From: Candidatus Latescibacterota bacterium
GTDB lineage: Bacteria; Latescibacterota; UBA2968; GCA-2709665
Direction of reading: 5' to 3'
Length of the DNA: 64,000 nt
NCBI GenBank assembly: GCA_965205485.1
Contig: OZ242180.1
Location: forward strand, 1,248,001 to 1,312,000
Shown: in pieces, positions 19,794-22,700 of the stretch
Layout of the letters: every line of letters starts with the position of its first letter
How positions within the stretch are numbered: position 1 is the first letter of the stretch
Position numbers: made by a program

Positions 19794-22700
19794 TAGCCGA
19801 GACGGGACGTCGCAGGGCGGCAACAGGGCATCCAGGCGAATCCGTTGCCTTGGCGACGTTATGCGGTGTCCAATTTCAGGGTGTACGAAATGTGGGGACG
19901 AATCGCCCGACGCGGTGCGGCCCGCAATGGACAGGGTCATAGGAGACCATCCGAAGCCTTCCGCGAGTCCACCTATCCTCCTCCGTATCCCGATGGGTGG
20001 TACAGGGTGGCGGCATCGGCTGACATCAGCCGCGGCGAAGTAACGTACGTCGAATGTCTTGGGAAGCAGATTGCGCTCTTCCGGAGCGAATTGGACGGAC
20101 AAATCTTCGCAGTCGATGCCTTCTGCCCGCACATGGGTGCCAATTTGGCCCATGGCACGGTAATTGGCGACCAGTTGCGATGTCCCTTCCACGGCTGGCG
20201 GATTGACGGACTTGGACAGATCCGAGGCACTCCCACGAACGACAAACTACCAACCAGGACCCATACACACTGGGAAGTGATGGATTATTACGGCATGGTC
20301 GTGGTCTACCACGCAGAGCACATGCCGGATCGAGTCCTTTACCGCCTTCGCGAACAGAGCAGGATAGATCGCGGGCAGTTTGATTACCGGGGGAAGTACG
20401 AAGCCGGCGAAGTGGGCATGCATCTCATAGAGTTCGCCGAAAACGCCGTGGACTTCCAGCATTTCCCTGAGATCCACGGCGTCATGCATATACCGTGGAC
20501 CCGGTTCCCCATCCCCTTCATCAAGATTCACCACGAAGCGAGTTGGGAATCCGATGCCGACTCGACTCATCTTGCCTATTTCAATGATCATAGCATGCTC
20601 GAGATACTGGGTCGAAAGATGCAAAATACCGCGGCCACCGCCAGAATCACTTTCCATGGACCTGGCGGTATCGTCCAGTTTGATTTTTCAATTCCCAATC
20701 TGGGCGGAATCACCATGTTTCAGACGCATACGCCCATCGCACCGCTCAAGCAGCAAGTTCATTTCTCGTGGTTCGCAGAAAAGCGCGTTTCCCGGATTCT
20801 GGCCAGTTATGTAGTGGGTAACTGGGTGTCGCAATGGCGGAGGGACGTGGAGATCTGGGAGAACAAGATCTACAGACGGAAACCGTTGCTCACCAGGTCC
20901 GACGGGCCCGTGCATCGAATGCGCCAATGGTACCAACAGTTCTACGCGACATGACCCGACGAAGTGTAGAATAATGACTGGCCCCATACACATCCCGGTT
21001 TCGAAGGGTGTTAAGCGAGAAGCAACCGTGCGGGCTGCCGAAAAATACCGCAGTTTTCATGACGAAGGAAATGGCGGAGGTTATCAAGATCGAAAGCGCC
21101 GTTACATGGAAATGGTCAACCAGTATTATAATCTGGTTACCGATTTCTACGAGTATGGATGGGGTCGGTCCTTTCACTTTGCGCCGCGCAAACGGCACGA
21201 GTCATTTGAGGATTCCCTGATCCGCCACGAACTTTTCCTCGCCGAAGCTATCGGCCTCCATCCCGGTATGAGGGTGTTGGACGTCGGTTGCGGCGTAGGG
21301 GGTCCGATGCGTTTGATGGCGAGGAAGTTCGGCGCCCATGTGGTTGGTCTCAATAACAATGAATATCAACTGGACAAGTGCGAAGCCTACAACAAAGCGG
21401 CCGGCCTCCAGCATCAGACAGAGATTCTGCATGGCGACTACATGCAGATCCCGGCCCCGGATGCCAGTTTCGATACCGCCTTCCAGATCGAGGCCACGCC
21501 CCATGCACCGGACAAGGAGGGGGCCTTTGCCGAAATTTGGCGCGTGCTGCGACCAGGCGGCAGGTTCGGCGGCTACGAGTGGTGTACGACTCCCGGTTAC
21601 AACGCCGAGGATCCAGCCCATCAGGAGTTAAAGAAGGGCATTGAGACGGGCAACGGTCTCCCGGATATCGCGTCGTTCGATGACGTGGTCGGAGCCTTGC
21701 GAAGCGCGGGATTTGAAGTAATCGAATCCTTCGATGCCGCCGACAGATCCGACCCGGAGACGCCCTGGTACCGTGCGCTGGAGGGTCGTGACGTATCTTT
21801 GGCAAGCCTGCCGAGAACGGCCATCGGCCGGTTTGTCACCACTTGGACACTGCGGTTACTCGAGCCGCTCCGCATCGTGCCAAAGGGCACGACCGATGTA
21901 CAGAAATTGCTGAACCTGGCTGCCGACAGCCTCGTTGCCGGCGGCCGCCTCGGCATATTCACGCCGATGTTCTACTACACGGCGCGCAAGCCGCAATGAT
22001 GACCTCCCAATCAAACTGACTTTTCAAGCACCCGCTGTTTGCGTCGGTCCATGAACTGTCCGGATTATTTGGGATTTTTCCGATGCCTGTGTACTTCTCG
22101 AATCCGGCCTGTTCGGGCGGCCGCAGTCCAAAGGCAGAAGAAGAAAGGAACGACGATGGCAATCACGCTGGCGGCAGGGGATGCGGCCCCGGATTTCGAA
22201 CTTGCCGATCAAGACGGCAACGTCCATTCGCTGGCCGGATACCGGGGCCGGGCGGTCGTCCTCTACTTCTATCCACGCGATAACACCCCGGGTTGCACGA
22301 TTCAGGCCTGCTCATTGCGGGACAATCACGCCGAAATCGTGGATGAGGGCGCAGTCGTGCTCGGCGTTTCGAGAGACGATGCCGATTCGCACCGGGGCTT
22401 CCGGGAAAGCCAGCGGCTGCCGTTTCCGCTGCTGGTGGATGCCGACGCAACCGTCTCCACCCGTTATGGCGCCTGGGGTGAGAAAGTCCTCTACGGCCGC
22501 CGCTTCGAGGGAATGACGCGGTCAACGTTCATCATCGGTCCGGACGGAATCCTGACCAAAGTCTGGAAACGCGCCCGGGCTGCCGGGCATGGCGGGGCTG
22601 TAATCAAGGCGCTGCGCGAGTCAGGCCGGTAGTATGTCCAGGGTGGCAACCCCAGGGGGCCAGCGTGATCGATCCAACTGTTCAGACGCAAATGCTCATC

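What a model noticed while it worked through the whole genome (the two positions that open the first line are those of the whole stretch)
19890..21999. Two plant-like sterol C24-methyltransferases and a Neverland-like Rieske oxygenase in a genome without a sterol cyclase [...]
g00957 and g00753 are 50% and 47% identical to plant cycloartenol C24-methyltransferases and carry the Sterol_MT_C domain; g00957 directly follows a Rieske/KshA_C oxygenase (g00956) whose best Swiss-Prot match is animal cholesterol 7-desaturase Neverland, yet this closed 5.1-Mb genome has no squalene/oxidosqualene cyclase. Boldest reading: the bacterium does not make sterols but takes up and remodels eukaryotic (algal) sterols, methylating the side chain and desaturating the ring. 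New: bacterial side-chain alkylation of scavenged sterols would add a non-eukaryotic route to C28-C30 sterane patterns.
Evidence so far: Swiss-Prot best hits and identities from swissprot.tsv; Pfam CMAS..Sterol_MT_C on both, Rieske+KshA_C on g00956. Sterol_MT_C in 27 of 167 Latescibacterota and 1156 of 189784 bacterial species genomes. pfam.tsv has no SQHop_cyclase_N/_C, Prenyltrans or SE (squalene epoxidase) row, but two SQS_PSY genes, g03460/g03461; six-frame search of the genome with PF13243 finds one sub-threshold piece only (23.4 bits, cut-off 26.1; 2 of 14 control genomes ring). Genome 97% complete, one contig. Bacterial SMTs were shown active by Brown et al. 2023 (PMC10070321; passages read, call 141): 13 of their 24 metagenomic SMTs were linked to a cyclase; the words 'exogenous' and 'Rieske' do not occur in that pape [...]
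(Added by a program. Inside this text positions count along the whole contig: contig position 1,248,001 is position 1 of the stretch shown here. "Call 12" and the like, gene names such as g00115 and contig names such as C1 are that model's own, and its searches are not shown. The text may have been shortened before it was handed on; [...] marks where a part breaks off. The agent that wrote the report below was given it as the finding of a first reader that could run no searches.)

Follow-up and report, generated by a model that had tools for sequence, protein, structure and literature searches.

The report
Sterol-tailoring gene pair without cyclase
A sponge-associated bacterium that cannot make sterols carries a horizontally acquired pair of genes, a sterol side-chain methyltransferase and an animal-type sterol oxygenase, that probably remodels sterols obtained from outside, which bears on who really makes the unusual "sponge" sterols used as fossil biomarkers.

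Summary
Window 19890-20954 encodes a Rieske/KshA_C oxygenase and 20974-21999 a sterol C-24 methyltransferase (SMT). The gap between them is 19 nt, not 151. A second SMT lies 263 kb upstream. The closed genome has no OSC, SHC, squalene epoxidase, CYP51, ERG4/24 or SdmA.

- **Mobile cassette.** 46 of 80 Rieske-homologue loci from many phyla have an SMT directly adjacent. The two genes co-diverge (r 0.95). Four congeners have katG directly next to ahpC where this genome has the 2.35-kb insert.
- **Mostly cyclase-less hosts.** 25 of 34 cassette genomes tested lack an OSC. In the window's own phylum, 29 of 30 SMT genomes lack any cyclase.
- **Second steroid-type module in the window.** It comprises Rieske2, a GPP34-P450 fusion, an SdmB/HpnA-like SDR, an RND pump and a 5-alpha-reductase-like gene. 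In Binatia and Bryobacterales these sit in one cluster with the cassette genes, in Binatia also with an OSC.
- **Sponge link.** Contigs of sponge metagenomes hold the cassette.

Best reading (0.55): tailoring of exogenous sterols, from the holobiont rather than shown to be algal. Main rival: the substrate derives from the cell's own squalene, since HpnCDE is present.

Scavenged-sterol methylation was already proposed for a Chlamydiae SMT (Brown 2023). This scan found the same cassette before on other DNA. I found no description of the SMT-Rieske pairing in print.

The parts
19890..20954 (+). Rieske1: a Rieske [2Fe-2S] / KshA_C oxygenase of the Neverland/KshA type. The ORF is open from TTG 19845; the likely start is ATG 19890, giving 354 aa.
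   Evidence: Pfam Rieske 80.7 bits and KshA_C 79.5 bits. The CPH...CPFH and D-x2-H-x4-H motifs are present and invariant in alignment A1. Best PDB match is KshA, E 1e-29. The SdmA model scores only 52 bits against a cut-off of 600. Homologues at 50-67% identity occur in Chloroflexi, Enhygromyxa, Nannocystis and others; the closest ones are 354 aa.
20974..21999 (+). SMT1: sterol C-24 methyltransferase, 341 aa.
   Evidence: Sterol_MT_C 81.3 bits and Methyltransf_11 76 bits. All 25 residues reported as conserved in functional SMTs are present by motif-anchored mapping; residue 249 is Asn.
19793..22140 (+). Horizontally inserted segment carrying Rieske1 and SMT1, lying between katG and ahpC.
   Evidence: blastn homology to four congeners (G052, G054, G055, G056) stops at about 19792 and resumes at about 22140. 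In those four genomes katG is followed directly by ahpC. GC is 55-58% here, against 59-67% in most flanking kilobases. Only G000 and G047 of 168 phylum genomes have this Rieske type.
17634..19796 (+). katG (catalase-peroxidase), the upstream flank of the insert; not part of the cassette.
   Evidence: Pfam peroxidase 244.9 bits; 88-94% identical in congeners without the cassette.
22039..22632 (+). ahpC/TSA peroxiredoxin, the downstream flank of the insert; not part of the cassette.
   Evidence: AhpC-TSA 131.9 bits; adjacent to katG in congeners.
41678..42436 (+). Steroid_dh (3-oxo-5-alpha-steroid 4-dehydrogenase / SRD5A-like) membrane reductase.
   Evidence: Pfam E 8e-49. A 61% identical homologue sits inside the Rieske/SMT/GPP34-P450/SDR/RND cluster of a Bryobacterales genome, L077.
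58421..59779 (+). Fe-dependent alcohol dehydrogenase, first gene of the second module.
   Evidence: Fe-ADH 148.6 bits and ADH_Fe_C 120.7 bits; it ends 3 nt before Rieske2.
59783..60877 (+). Rieske2: a second Rieske/KshA_C oxygenase, the island type.
   Evidence: KshA_C 77.1 bits. It is 78% identical to the G085 Rieske that lies convergent to the island SMT. KshA_C is present in 42 of 168 phylum genomes. The SdmA model scores 37 bits.
61277..63313 (+). GPP34 + cytochrome P450 fusion (GPP34_L).
   Evidence: GPP34 97.8 bits and p450 119.7 bits. Best PDB matches are CYP51, but at only E 4e-23. Full-length matches at 50% identity or more are listed for 39 of the other 167 phylum genomes. It is 86% identical to a Bryobacterales copy and 55% to a Binatia copy that lies inside an OSC cluster.
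63379..64000 (+). SdmB/HpnA-like NAD(P)-dependent SDR (3-beta-HSD family). It runs off the window to position 64407. Beyond the window, on the minus strand, lie an RND pump (64479-67652), an MFP (67649-68860) and an OEP (68867-70474).
   Evidence: NCBIfam SdmB 206.6 bits and HpnA 204 bits, both below cut-off. ACR_tran 535 bits, HlyD_3, OEP. The RND pump is 82% identical to that of G085.

Best explanation
Rieske1 and SMT1 form a horizontally acquired two-gene operon, a portable sterol-tailoring cassette shared by bacteria of many phyla, many of them sponge-associated. This host cannot cyclise squalene or oxidosqualene, so the cassette most likely acts on sterols obtained from outside: the sponge host, its food, or sterol-making co-symbionts.

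Steps:
1. Shown: the genome has none of the known de novo sterol enzymes (OSC, SHC, SE, CYP51, ERG4/24, SdmA, FA_hydroxylase).
2. Inferred: a 4,14-demethylated sterol reaches the cell; the entry route is unknown.
3. Inferred from family membership and conserved residues: SMT1, and the unlinked SMT2, transfer methyl from SAM to C-24 of a delta-24 sterol. SMT2 carries Gly at the position reported as needed for propylation.
4. Inferred from homology only: Rieske1, with O2 and an unidentified reductase, oxidises the same sterol. By analogy to Neverland this would be 7,8-desaturation to a delta-5,7 diene. Hydroxylation or desaturation at another position, including the side chain, is not excluded.
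5. Inferred from synteny in other genomes: the second module of the window further modifies the product and exports or relocates it. That module holds Fe-ADH, Rieske2, GPP34-P450, an SdmB/HpnA-like SDR, a 5-alpha-reductase-like enzyme and an RND-MFP-OEP pump.
For: - **Gene identity:**
- **No cyclase or early pathway in the genome:** (OSC/SHC; SE; ERG4/24; FA_hydroxylase; only two P450s, neither CYP51-like at high score; not SdmA).
- **Lineage-wide pattern:** Sterol_MT_C in 30 of 168 phylum genomes. True cyclases (194-207 bits) occur in 3 of 168 and only G042 has both, so 29 of 30 SMT genomes lack one, 13 of them single-contig. In the genus, 0 of 14 other genomes have a cyclase.
- **Cassette conservation:** 46 of 80 Rieske1-family loci have an SMT adjacent on the same strand, 19 as Rieske>SMT and 27 as SMT>Rieske, with HSP gaps of 23-213 nt.
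- **Co-divergence:** pairwise distances of the two proteins correlate at r 0.952 over 43 pairs; 0 of 999 permutations reach that value.
- **Varied flanks:** flanking genes are unrelated housekeeping genes in the 9 cassette loci scanned.
- **Clean insertion** between katG and ahpC.
- **Cassette versus OSC:** of 34 cassette genomes, 9 have an OSC, 8 only an SHC and 17 no cyclase. Of 14 genomes whose Rieske homologue has no nearby SMT, 11 have an OSC.
- **Clean case:** G193 is a 5.45-Mb chromosome with the cassette, no cyclase and no SQS_PSY gene.
- **Links to sterol genes elsewhere:** Rieske-SMT-ERG4/ERG24 (424 bits) in a cyclase-less Chloroflexota genome, L063. In Binatia L065 a Rieske1 homologue, an RND pump, GPP34-P450, ERG24, OSC and an SMT share one cluster; L069 has the same set without the GPP34-P450. 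Bryobacterales L077 has Rieske, SMT fragment, GPP34-P450 (86% identity), SDR, Steroid_dh and RND together.
- **Sponge link:** contigs of sponge metagenome runs X5 and X6 bridge katG-Rieske-SMT. GPP34+P450 is reported only from sponge symbionts (PMC11706023).
- **Precedent:** bacterial SMTs methylate desmosterol in vitro, and host-sterol methylation was proposed for Chlamydiae (PMC10070321).
Against: - No biochemical or expression evidence exists for these genes.
- The genome encodes HpnC, HpnD and HpnE above NCBIfam cut-offs, so it probably makes squalene with no known consumer. An endogenous isoprenoid substrate is therefore possible.
- Most cyclase-less cassette genomes also have SQS_PSY genes; overall 44 of 52 genomes tested have one.
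- Nine of 34 cassette genomes do have an OSC, so the cassette is not specific to scavengers.
- No sterol import system was identified, and the RND pump of the second module is of the efflux type.
- The regiochemistry of Rieske1 is unknown, and its reductase partner was not found next to it.
- Many comparison genomes are MAGs of unknown completeness, and related genomes are not independent counts.
- The mapping of yeast residue numbers onto SMT1 and SMT2 was done from motif positions, not from an alignment with ERG6.
Confidence: 0.55

Rival explanations
1. The substrate is an endogenous non-sterol isoprenoid. The cell makes squalene with HpnCDE. The SMT-like enzymes methylate its terminal isopropylidene groups, which are chemically equivalent to a sterol delta-24 bond, as the SMT-like triterpene methyltransferases of Botryococcus do (recalled, not checked here). 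The Rieske and P450 enzymes then oxidise the product.
For: HpnC (323.7 bits against a cut-off of 250), HpnD (318.5 against 279) and HpnE (393.3 against 283) are present, while no SHC, OSC or SE exists to use squalene. Tandem SQS_PSY genes also occur in several cyclase-less cassette genomes: G169, G173, G184, G185, G189 and G214.
Against: SMT1 and SMT2 keep every residue reported as conserved in sterol-active SMTs. The cassette was inserted into a lineage whose sisters lack it, so it is not tied to HpnCDE. Five of 34 cassette genomes have no SQS_PSY gene, among them the 5.45-Mb chromosome G193. Elsewhere the cassette is linked to sterol-specific genes: ERG4/ERG24 in L063, and an OSC cluster in Binatia. 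The Rieske family also occurs in cholesterol-producing myxobacteria.
Confidence: 0.17
2. The genes serve sterol detoxification or catabolism rather than production of a useful lipid. Host sterols or steroidal defence compounds are oxidised (KshA-like chemistry), modified and pumped out by the RND system.
For: The best solved relatives of Rieske1 are KshA 3-ketosteroid 9-alpha-hydroxylases (E 1e-29). The second module joins oxidoreductases to an AcrB-type efflux pump with MFP and OEP.
Against: A SAM-dependent C-methylation is not a known step of steroid degradation. No catabolic genes (CoA ligases, thiolases, ring-cleavage dioxygenases) appear next to the cassette in the 12 loci scanned or in the window. 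Similarity to KshA is only at superfamily level. A dedicated search for kstD or hsa genes was not made.
Confidence: 0.12
3. The bacterium makes sterol-like lipids de novo by an unrecognised route. Squalene from HpnCDE would be oxidised and cyclised by enzymes not homologous to SE and OSC, and the SMT, Rieske, P450 and SDR enzymes would be its downstream pathway.
For: Squalene synthesis genes are present. Several post-cyclisation-type enzymes are present: SMT x2, Rieske x2, a P450 whose best PDB matches are CYP51 (weakly), an SdmB-like SDR and Steroid_dh.
Against: No alternative to OSC is known. No cyclase-like sequence was found by Pfam, TIGRFAM or tblastn. There is no SE and no FA_hydroxylase-type alternative epoxidase, and no CYP51, SdmA or ERG24. 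The one relative that has an OSC (G042) also has the full classical set of SdmA, SdmB and ERG24.
Confidence: 0.04
4. The cassette is a recent, possibly neutral acquisition with little or no function in this host.
For: Only 2 of 15 genomes of the genus carry it. SMT1 differs by 18% between G000 and G047 while Rieske1 differs by 1%.
Against: Both ORFs are intact, with all catalytic motifs. The pair is maintained intact across 46 loci of many phyla, with strong co-divergence. Variants are present in several metagenomes.
Confidence: 0.07

Closest known systems
Bacterial sterol C-24 methyltransferases of sponge symbionts and other uncultured bacteria (Brown, Olagunju, Giner, Welander 2023, PMC10070321; Brown & Welander 2025 preprint 10.64898/2025.12.19.695621)
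   Same: Same family (Sterol_MT_C plus Methyltransf_11) and the same conserved Region I-IV residues. The setting is also sponge-associated. That paper already proposes that a Chlamydiae SMT in a MAG without other sterol genes may methylate host-acquired sterols.
   Different: Those papers describe SMTs clustered with OSC, CYP51, ERG24 and sdmA/sdmB. 'Rieske' occurs in neither main text nor the supplements I could search (file 7 was unreadable). Here the SMT is paired with a Neverland/KshA-type Rieske oxygenase as a mobile two-gene cassette, mostly in genomes without an OSC.
Neverland / DAF-36 cholesterol 7-desaturases of animals (Rieske oxygenases; also Tetrahymena DES7, recalled)
   Same: Rieske plus KshA_C architecture, with both metal-binding motifs. 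Homologues of Rieske1 carry automatic names such as 'cholesterol 7-desaturase'. An arthropod nvd cluster is among the nearest Atlas clusters (a lead only).
   Different: Rieske1 is bacterial and coupled to an SMT, and its activity and regiochemistry are untested. Orthology to the animal enzymes was not tested here, because no eukaryotic sequence was at hand.
KshA, 3-ketosteroid 9-alpha-hydroxylase oxygenase of actinobacterial steroid catabolism (PDB 4qdc, 2zyl)
   Same: It is the best solved relative, aligned over nearly the full length (residues 37-368 against 17-345, E 6e-29), with the same fold family and cofactors.
   Different: Similarity is only at superfamily level. There is no KshB and no catabolic gene context.
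SdmA/SdmB, bacterial sterol C-4 demethylation (Methylococcus; NCBIfam NF052579 / NF052578)
   Same: SdmA is also a Rieske oxygenase of bacterial sterol pathways that is found next to SMTs (Brown 2023). The window's SDR at 63379 belongs to the SdmB/HpnA family (207 bits).
   Different: Rieske1 scores 52 bits and Rieske2 37 bits against the SdmA model (cut-off 600), and only over the Rieske domain. The true SdmA/SdmB pair of relative G042 scores 515 and 481 bits. Rieske1 and Rieske2 are therefore not SdmA.
GPP34_L (GPP34 + cytochrome P450) proteins of sponge symbionts (PMC11706023, Microbiome 2025)
   Same: The window's 678-aa protein has exactly this architecture. The paper reports it in 92.6% of 27 sponge-symbiont Latescibacterota and only in sponge symbionts.
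   Different: The paper proposes a role in modulating phagocytosis, and the word 'sterol' does not occur in it. Here and in relatives the gene sits with SMT, Rieske, SDR and RND genes, and in Binatia inside an OSC cluster, which points to sterol chemistry.

Membership tests
Sterol C-24 methyltransferase (ERG6/SMT) | Sterol_MT_C domain above the Pfam gathering score, together with a class I SAM methyltransferase domain | tested here: met
   SMT1: Sterol_MT_C 81.3 bits (cut-off 21.7) and Methyltransf_11 76.1 bits. SMT2: 80.9 and 73.9 bits.
Sterol C-24 methyltransferase (ERG6/SMT) | Region I GWGxxFHF, Region II DxGxGxxGP, E195, G217 and the other residues conserved among all functional SMTs (25 in all, preprint 10.64898/2025.12.19.695621) | tested here: met
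   SMT1 has 25 of 25 and SMT2 has 25 of 25, by mapping from motif anchors. The mapping is an inference because ERG6 itself was not aligned. The island-type SMTs of relatives deviate at T78S, F89L and G132A.
Sterol C-24 methyltransferase (ERG6/SMT) | Methylation of a delta-24 sterol in vitro | not testable with these tools
   Needs the lysate assay of Brown et al. 2023.
Neverland/DAF-36 cholesterol 7-desaturase | Rieske CxH-x16-CxxH motif and the mononuclear iron motif (D-x2-H-x4-H) in a KshA_C-type catalytic domain | tested here: met
   The motifs read C94-P-H96...C113-P-F-H116 and D203-x2-H206-x4-H211, all invariant in the 15-sequence alignment A1. KshA_C scores 79.5 bits. The motif definitions are recalled.
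Neverland/DAF-36 cholesterol 7-desaturase | Orthology to the animal enzymes (phylogeny or reciprocal best hit) | not tested
   No eukaryotic sequence could be fetched. The only support is automatic names on homologues and an Atlas neighbour cluster.
Neverland/DAF-36 cholesterol 7-desaturase | 7,8-desaturation of cholesterol | not testable with these tools
   A biochemical assay is needed.
KshA (3-ketosteroid 9-alpha-hydroxylase) | Close full-length similarity to KshA, and a steroid-catabolic context with KshB | tested here: not met
   Scores against KshA chains are only 94-106 bits. No reductase or catabolic genes are in the window flanks or in the 12 loci scanned.
SdmA (bacterial 4-beta-methylsterol monooxygenase) | NCBIfam NF052579 at or near the 600-bit cut-off over the full length | tested here: not met
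   Rieske1 scores 52.3 bits and Rieske2 37.1 bits, over the Rieske domain only. The positive control, the G042 Rieske of 425 aa, scores 514.8 bits.
De novo bacterial sterol biosynthesis | Oxidosqualene cyclase and squalene epoxidase in the genome | tested here: not met
   Positive controls: the G042 OSC scores 733-748 bits on TIGR03463, and 22 other genomes score 474-758 bits.
De novo bacterial sterol biosynthesis | C-14 demethylation and reduction (CYP51, ERG24) | tested here: not met
   The genome has only two P450s. One matches CYP51 at E 4e-23 only; the other matches CYP97/BM3-like chains best. ERG4_ERG24 gives no match.
GPP34_L / RND sterol-tailoring island of sponge symbionts | GPP34+P450 fusion next to a KshA_C Rieske oxygenase and an RND-MFP-OEP pump | tested here: met
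   Window 59783-63313, plus L060 positions equal to window 64479-70474. Unlike in relatives G085, G134, G104 and G090, no SMT lies inside it here.

The most novel reading that the evidence does not exclude
The Rieske partner is not a ring 7-desaturase but a side-chain oxygenase or desaturase. It would make or regenerate the double bond that an SMT needs, so that the two-gene cassette can alkylate the saturated-side-chain sterols (cholesterol-type) that a symbiont meets in its host, possibly more than once. SMT2 carries the Gly249 linked to propylation.

Cyclase-less symbionts of many phyla would then be direct makers of the unusual alkylated 'sponge' sterols and of their fossil steranes.

Three observations are compatible with this. 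The gene coupling is strict and the two genes co-diverge (r 0.95). The paired form is biased to OSC-less genomes (25 of 34). A Rieske1 homologue is present in Enhygromyxa salina, which makes 25-hydroxycholesterol (PMC10202945, passage read).
Probability: 0.13. Interest if true: 0.85.

Novelty: new variant of a known kind. Interest (0 to 1): 0.62.

Why it matters
Side-chain alkylated steranes such as 24-isopropylcholestane and 26-methylstigmastane are read as the oldest evidence for animals. That reading assumes only certain eukaryotes make the parent sterols. Bacterial SMTs are already known to work in vitro. The open question is whether bacteria without a sterol pathway use them.

This locus shows the SMT travelling as a compact, horizontally spread pair with a steroid-type oxygenase, mostly into genomes that cannot cyclise squalene, and in lineages found in sponge metagenomes. 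That makes the idea that symbionts edit host sterols directly testable with two genes and a lysate assay. It also gives a possible sterol-related function to the GPP34-P450 fusions, so far interpreted only as phagocytosis modulators.

Tried and rejected
- **SdmA identity of the Rieske genes:** rejected.
- **CYP51 identity of the genome's second P450:** rejected. Its neighbours are unrelated to steroids.
- **Context of SMT2:** ApbE, a heparinase-like protein and unknowns, with no steroid genes.
- **The weak PF13243 hits:** they lie in frames of 285, 973, 466 and 807 aa and score 10-23 bits, so they are not cyclases.
- **PDB search with SMT1:** it found only generic methyltransferases, best 3bus at 85 bits, and no solved SMT.
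- **Expression:** no RNA holder was listed for the cassette. All four runs laid were contigs, so nothing can be said on transcription.
- **Literature searches for the pairing.** The terms 'cholesterol 7-desaturase' + 'sterol methyltransferase' + 'bacteria' gave 1 paper, a review of 4-methylsterols. The terms 'Neverland' + 'Rieske' + 'bacterial' + 'symbiont' + 'sterol' gave 0 papers. 'Rieske', '7-desaturase', 'Neverland' and 'P450' had 0 occurrences in 6 of 7 supplements of Brown 2023; file 7 was unreadable. 'Latescibacter' + 'sterol' gave 16 papers, none on sterol genes in the two I opened.
- **Atlas search by structure:** not run by the tool.
- **ORF picking:** my greedy longest-ORF picking mis-called opposite-strand ORFs in the high-GC myxobacterial loci, so their contexts are incomplete.
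- **Not attempted:** structure prediction, a complex prediction (I do not claim the two proteins bind), a search for kstD/hsa catabolic genes, and a search for a KshB-type reductase.

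
Full report
**1. The observation**

The window carries two ORFs on the + strand. 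The first runs from 19845 (TTG) or 19890 (ATG) to 20954. The second runs from 20974 to 21999.

- The first has a Rieske [2Fe-2S] domain (80.7 bits) and a KshA_C catalytic domain (79.5 bits).
- The second has Sterol_MT_C (81.3 bits, cut-off 21.7), Methyltransf_11 and CMAS.
- The stop of the first and the ATG of the second are 19 nt apart.
- The long form is supported by tblastn alignments over residues 1-341 and by a 341-aa homologous ORF 26 nt behind the Rieske gene in L063.
- No terminator-like site lies between the genes.
- The closest Rieske homologues are 354 aa, which fits the ATG at 19890.
- A second SMT (349 aa) lies at G000:C1:983891-984940, among unrelated genes.

**2. No cyclase, and what else is missing**

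The genome is one contig of 5,125,460 bases, 97.27% complete.

| Enzyme | Test | Result |
|---|---|---|
| OSC/SHC | PF13243 | best 23.4 bits, in a 285-aa frame |
| OSC/SHC | PF13249 | best 14.9 bits |
| OSC | TIGR03463 | no match |
| OSC, ERG24, START protein | tblastn with those of same-family relative G042 | 0 HSPs each |
| Squalene epoxidase | PF08491 | absent |
| ERG4/ERG24 | PF01222 | absent |
| FA_hydroxylase (ERG3/ERG25, alternative epoxidase) | PF04116 | absent |
| SdmA | NF052579 | absent |

Only two P450s exist. One is the GPP34 fusion, whose best PDB matches are CYP51 but only at E 4e-23. The other matches CYP97- and BM3-like chains best.

Present, however, are HpnC, HpnD and HpnE, all above NCBIfam cut-offs. 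The cell probably makes squalene without any known enzyme to consume it.

**3. The pattern holds across the lineage**

I scanned 168 genomes of the phylum, including this one. The NCBI title of a near-identical contig says Gemmatimonadota.

- 30 genomes have Sterol_MT_C.
- Only 3 have a real cyclase (194-207 bits, frames of 647-669 aa). Seven more score 26-32 bits in frames of 410-515 aa, and I do not count them.
- Only G042 has both. So 29 of 30 SMT genomes lack a cyclase, 13 of them single-contig assemblies. In the genus, 0 of 14 other genomes have one.
- G042 is a classical de novo producer. It has an OSC (748 bits on TIGR03463), SdmA (515 bits), SdmB (481 bits), ERG24, an MMPL/sterol-sensing transporter, a START protein and two further KshA_C Rieske genes.

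**4. Rieske1-SMT1 is a mobile two-gene cassette**

Rieske1 has homologues of 50-67% identity in MAGs labelled Chloroflexi, Rhodospirillaceae, Dadabacteria and Myxococcales. It also has them in cultured sterol producers (Nannocystis, Enhygromyxa salina). Some carry automatic names such as 'cholesterol 7-desaturase'.

A scan of species genomes with an alignment of 15 such proteins returned 80 loci with 10-kb flanks.

- 49 loci contain an SMT homologue.
- In 46 it is directly adjacent on the same strand: 19 as Rieske>SMT and 27 as SMT>Rieske, with HSP gaps of 23-213 nt.
- The record titles span Chloroflexota, Alpha- and Gammaproteobacteria, Dadabacteria, Thermodesulfobacteriota, Holophagales, Thermoanaerobaculia, Vicinamibacterales, Longimicrobiales, Acidimicrobiia, Pseudomonadales, Polyangiales and several 'Poriferi-' named candidate taxa.
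- Over the 43 pairs with at least 75% coverage of both proteins (42 loci plus the window; 4 adjacent loci were dropped for short coverage), pairwise distances of the two proteins correlate at r 0.952. None of 999 permutations reached that value. Shared species history contributes to such a correlation. But the window's nearest relatives after G047 are Chloroflexota (67-69%), so the pair moves as a unit.
- Flanking genes in the 9 cassette loci among the 12 scanned are unrelated housekeeping genes, except L063, where an ERG4/ERG24 reductase (424 bits) follows the SMT.

In this genus the cassette is an insertion. In G052, G054, G055 and G056, katG is followed directly by ahpC. G000 and G047 have about 2.35 kb between them (window about 19793-22140). 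GC there is 55-58%, against 59-67% in most neighbouring kilobases.

**5. Cassette versus cyclase outside the phylum**

TIGR03463 separates OSC-type matches (474-758 bits) from SHC-type matches (175-252 bits) (PF13243).

| Group | n | OSC | SHC only | No cyclase |
|---|---|---|---|---|
| Genomes with the adjacent cassette | 34 | 9 | 8 | 17 |
| Rieske homologue with no SMT nearby | 14 | 11 | 1 | 2 |
| Binatia, SMT about 9 kb away inside an OSC cluster | 2 | 2 | 0 | 0 |

So 25 of 34 cassette genomes lack an OSC. Among them are chromosomes of 4.2-5.5 Mb (G173, G185, G193, G201, G205).

Caveats: completeness is not given for these genomes, and related genomes are not independent.

SQS_PSY genes are present in 44 of 52 genomes tested. 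Of the 34 cassette genomes, 5 have none (G181, G187, G193, G198, G204... precisely G181, G187, G193, G204, G216 among the no-cyclase group and G198 among the SHC-only group, as starred). G193 has the cassette, no cyclase and no SQS_PSY gene, which makes it the cleanest case for an exogenous substrate.

**6. A second steroid-type module in the same window**

| Window position | Gene |
|---|---|
| 58421-59779 | Fe-ADH |
| 59783-60877 | Rieske2 (KshA_C) |
| 61277-63313 | GPP34+P450 fusion |
| 63379-64407 | SDR scoring 207 bits on SdmB and 204 bits on HpnA |
| 64479-70474, minus strand, beyond the window | RND, MFP and OEP |
| 41678-42436 | Steroid_dh (5-alpha-reductase-like) |

- In relatives G085, G134 and G104 the same RND / GPP34-P450 / Rieske set encloses an SMT, and G090 has the RND, SMT and Rieske with a flavoprotein. 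That SMT is of a deviant type, with T78S, F89L and G132A.
- In Bryobacterales L077 one cluster holds a Rieske1 homologue, an SMT fragment, GPP34-P450 (86% identical), the SDR, Steroid_dh (61%) and RND (70%).
- In Binatia L065, RND (87% identical to G085's), a Rieske1 homologue, GPP34-P450, ERG24, OSC and SMT lie together.
- This ties the dispersed genes of the window to one another and to sterol metabolism.
- GPP34+P450 fusions were published as exclusive to sponge symbionts and present in 92.6% of 27 Latescibacterota. That paper gives them no link to sterols (PMC11706023, passages read).

**7. Are the enzymes competent?**

Rieske1 keeps the CxH...CxxH cluster ligands and the D-x2-H-x4-H iron site. 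All are invariant in alignment A1.

SMT1 and SMT2 keep all 25 residues that Brown & Welander (2025 preprint; abstract and passages read) found conserved in every functional SMT. I mapped these from the motif positions the preprint gives, so the mapping is an inference.

- Residues 81 and 83 are Tyr in both.

Rieske1 is not SdmA: it scores 52 bits against a cut-off of 600. It is related to KshA only at superfamily level (E 1e-29).

**8. Habitat**

Near-identical words of the cassette occur in runs labelled sponge metagenome from several studies. I laid four runs.

- In sponge run X5, a 3237-nt contig covers the katG end, Rieske1 (about 98% identical) and SMT1 (about 88%), and continues into ahpC.
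- In sponge run X6, contigs tile the whole stretch. One 644-nt contig bridges the Rieske-SMT junction.
- In marine metagenome X8, a 2196-nt contig bridges both genes.
- X7 covers only parts.

No RNA run was listed, so expression is untested.

**9. Mechanism and rivals**

- **Best reading (0.55):** tailoring of exogenous, already demethylated sterols. SMT1 and SMT2 would methylate C-24, and Rieske1 would oxidise the sterol (7,8-desaturation by analogy; the position is unproven). The second module would add further redox steps and export. What is shown is the gene content, the synteny and the absence of a pathway. Everything about substrates is inferred.
- **Main rival (0.17):** a squalene-derived endogenous substrate, kept alive by HpnCDE.
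- **Others:** detoxification or catabolism (0.12), neutral cargo (0.07), and an unknown de novo route (0.04).

**10. Comparison with what is known**

- Bacterial SMTs are known and have been assayed. Brown et al. 2023 already suggest methylation of host-acquired sterols for a Chlamydiae SMT. For that paper I read the outline, section 7, passages of the discussion and all of Supplementary Data 1, and I searched 6 of 7 supplements.
- I found no description in print of the pairing with a Neverland/KshA-type Rieske oxygenase as a mobile cassette, of its bias to OSC-less genomes, or of the sterol context of GPP34-P450.
- This scan has noted the same two-gene operon and the RND island before on other DNA, and SMT2 of this genome. 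Two of those notes gave me the two papers above. I re-tested the claims here.
- Verdict: a real feature, and a new variant of a known kind.

Noticed in passing
G171, G174, G175, G177-G180, G182, G192, G207, G212, G215 and others (places listed): OSC-type matches in many symbiont genomes lie in open frames of about 1150-1270 aa, which suggests squalene monooxygenase-OSC fusions. Brown 2023 Supplementary Data 1 lists ERG1 and ERG7 hits on the same gene id.
   Followed up: partly
window 19793-22632 compared with L057 (G047) and contig record 5 of run X5: The conservation is mosaic: Rieske1 is 98-99% identical while SMT1 is 82-88% and ahpC 81%. A 147-nt stretch of equal length (20960-21108) is diverged. 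This suggests recombination inside the cassette.
   Followed up: partly
G000:C1:4314239-4317362 (L145:545-3668): An HpnC-HpnD-HpnE squalene synthesis operon sits in a genome with no squalene-hopene cyclase, OSC or epoxidase, so squalene has no known consumer.
   Followed up: partly
L063:10013-13645 (Chloroflexota chromosome, no cyclase found): A three-gene row of Rieske, SMT and an ERG4/ERG24-family sterol reductase (424 bits) lies in a genome without a cyclase.
   Followed up: partly
phylum genomes: GPP34-P450 paralogues at 34-39% identity occur in several copies per genome (three each in G128 and G118 beside their orthologue copies). Several carry a single in-frame stop (TGA or TAG). Stand-alone GPP34 genes of about 220-250 aa are in nearly every matching genome, and G000 has one at C1:1810933-1811556.
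   Followed up: no
window 8042-8812 (-), 34629-35366 (-); L007:812-1591 (-); L147:3109-3852 (+): Four PhyH (phytanoyl-CoA dioxygenase family) genes were seen in the stretches examined. One lies 7 kb from SMT2 and one near the second P450.
   Followed up: no
window 22665-23168 and 23247-23723 (+): Two AHSA1/SRPBCC-family small proteins (a lipid-binding fold superfamily) lie just downstream of the insert. They are conserved in congeners that lack the cassette, so they are not part of it.
   Followed up: yes
G000:C1:2225113-2227679: An MMPL-type transporter pair and a LolA-like gene are 23-36% identical to those beside the OSC of relative G042. They are a possible lipid or sterol transport candidate.
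   Followed up: no
window 40723-41562 (+): A NOV_C (NO VEIN C-terminal) domain protein lies directly upstream of the Steroid_dh gene.
   Followed up: no
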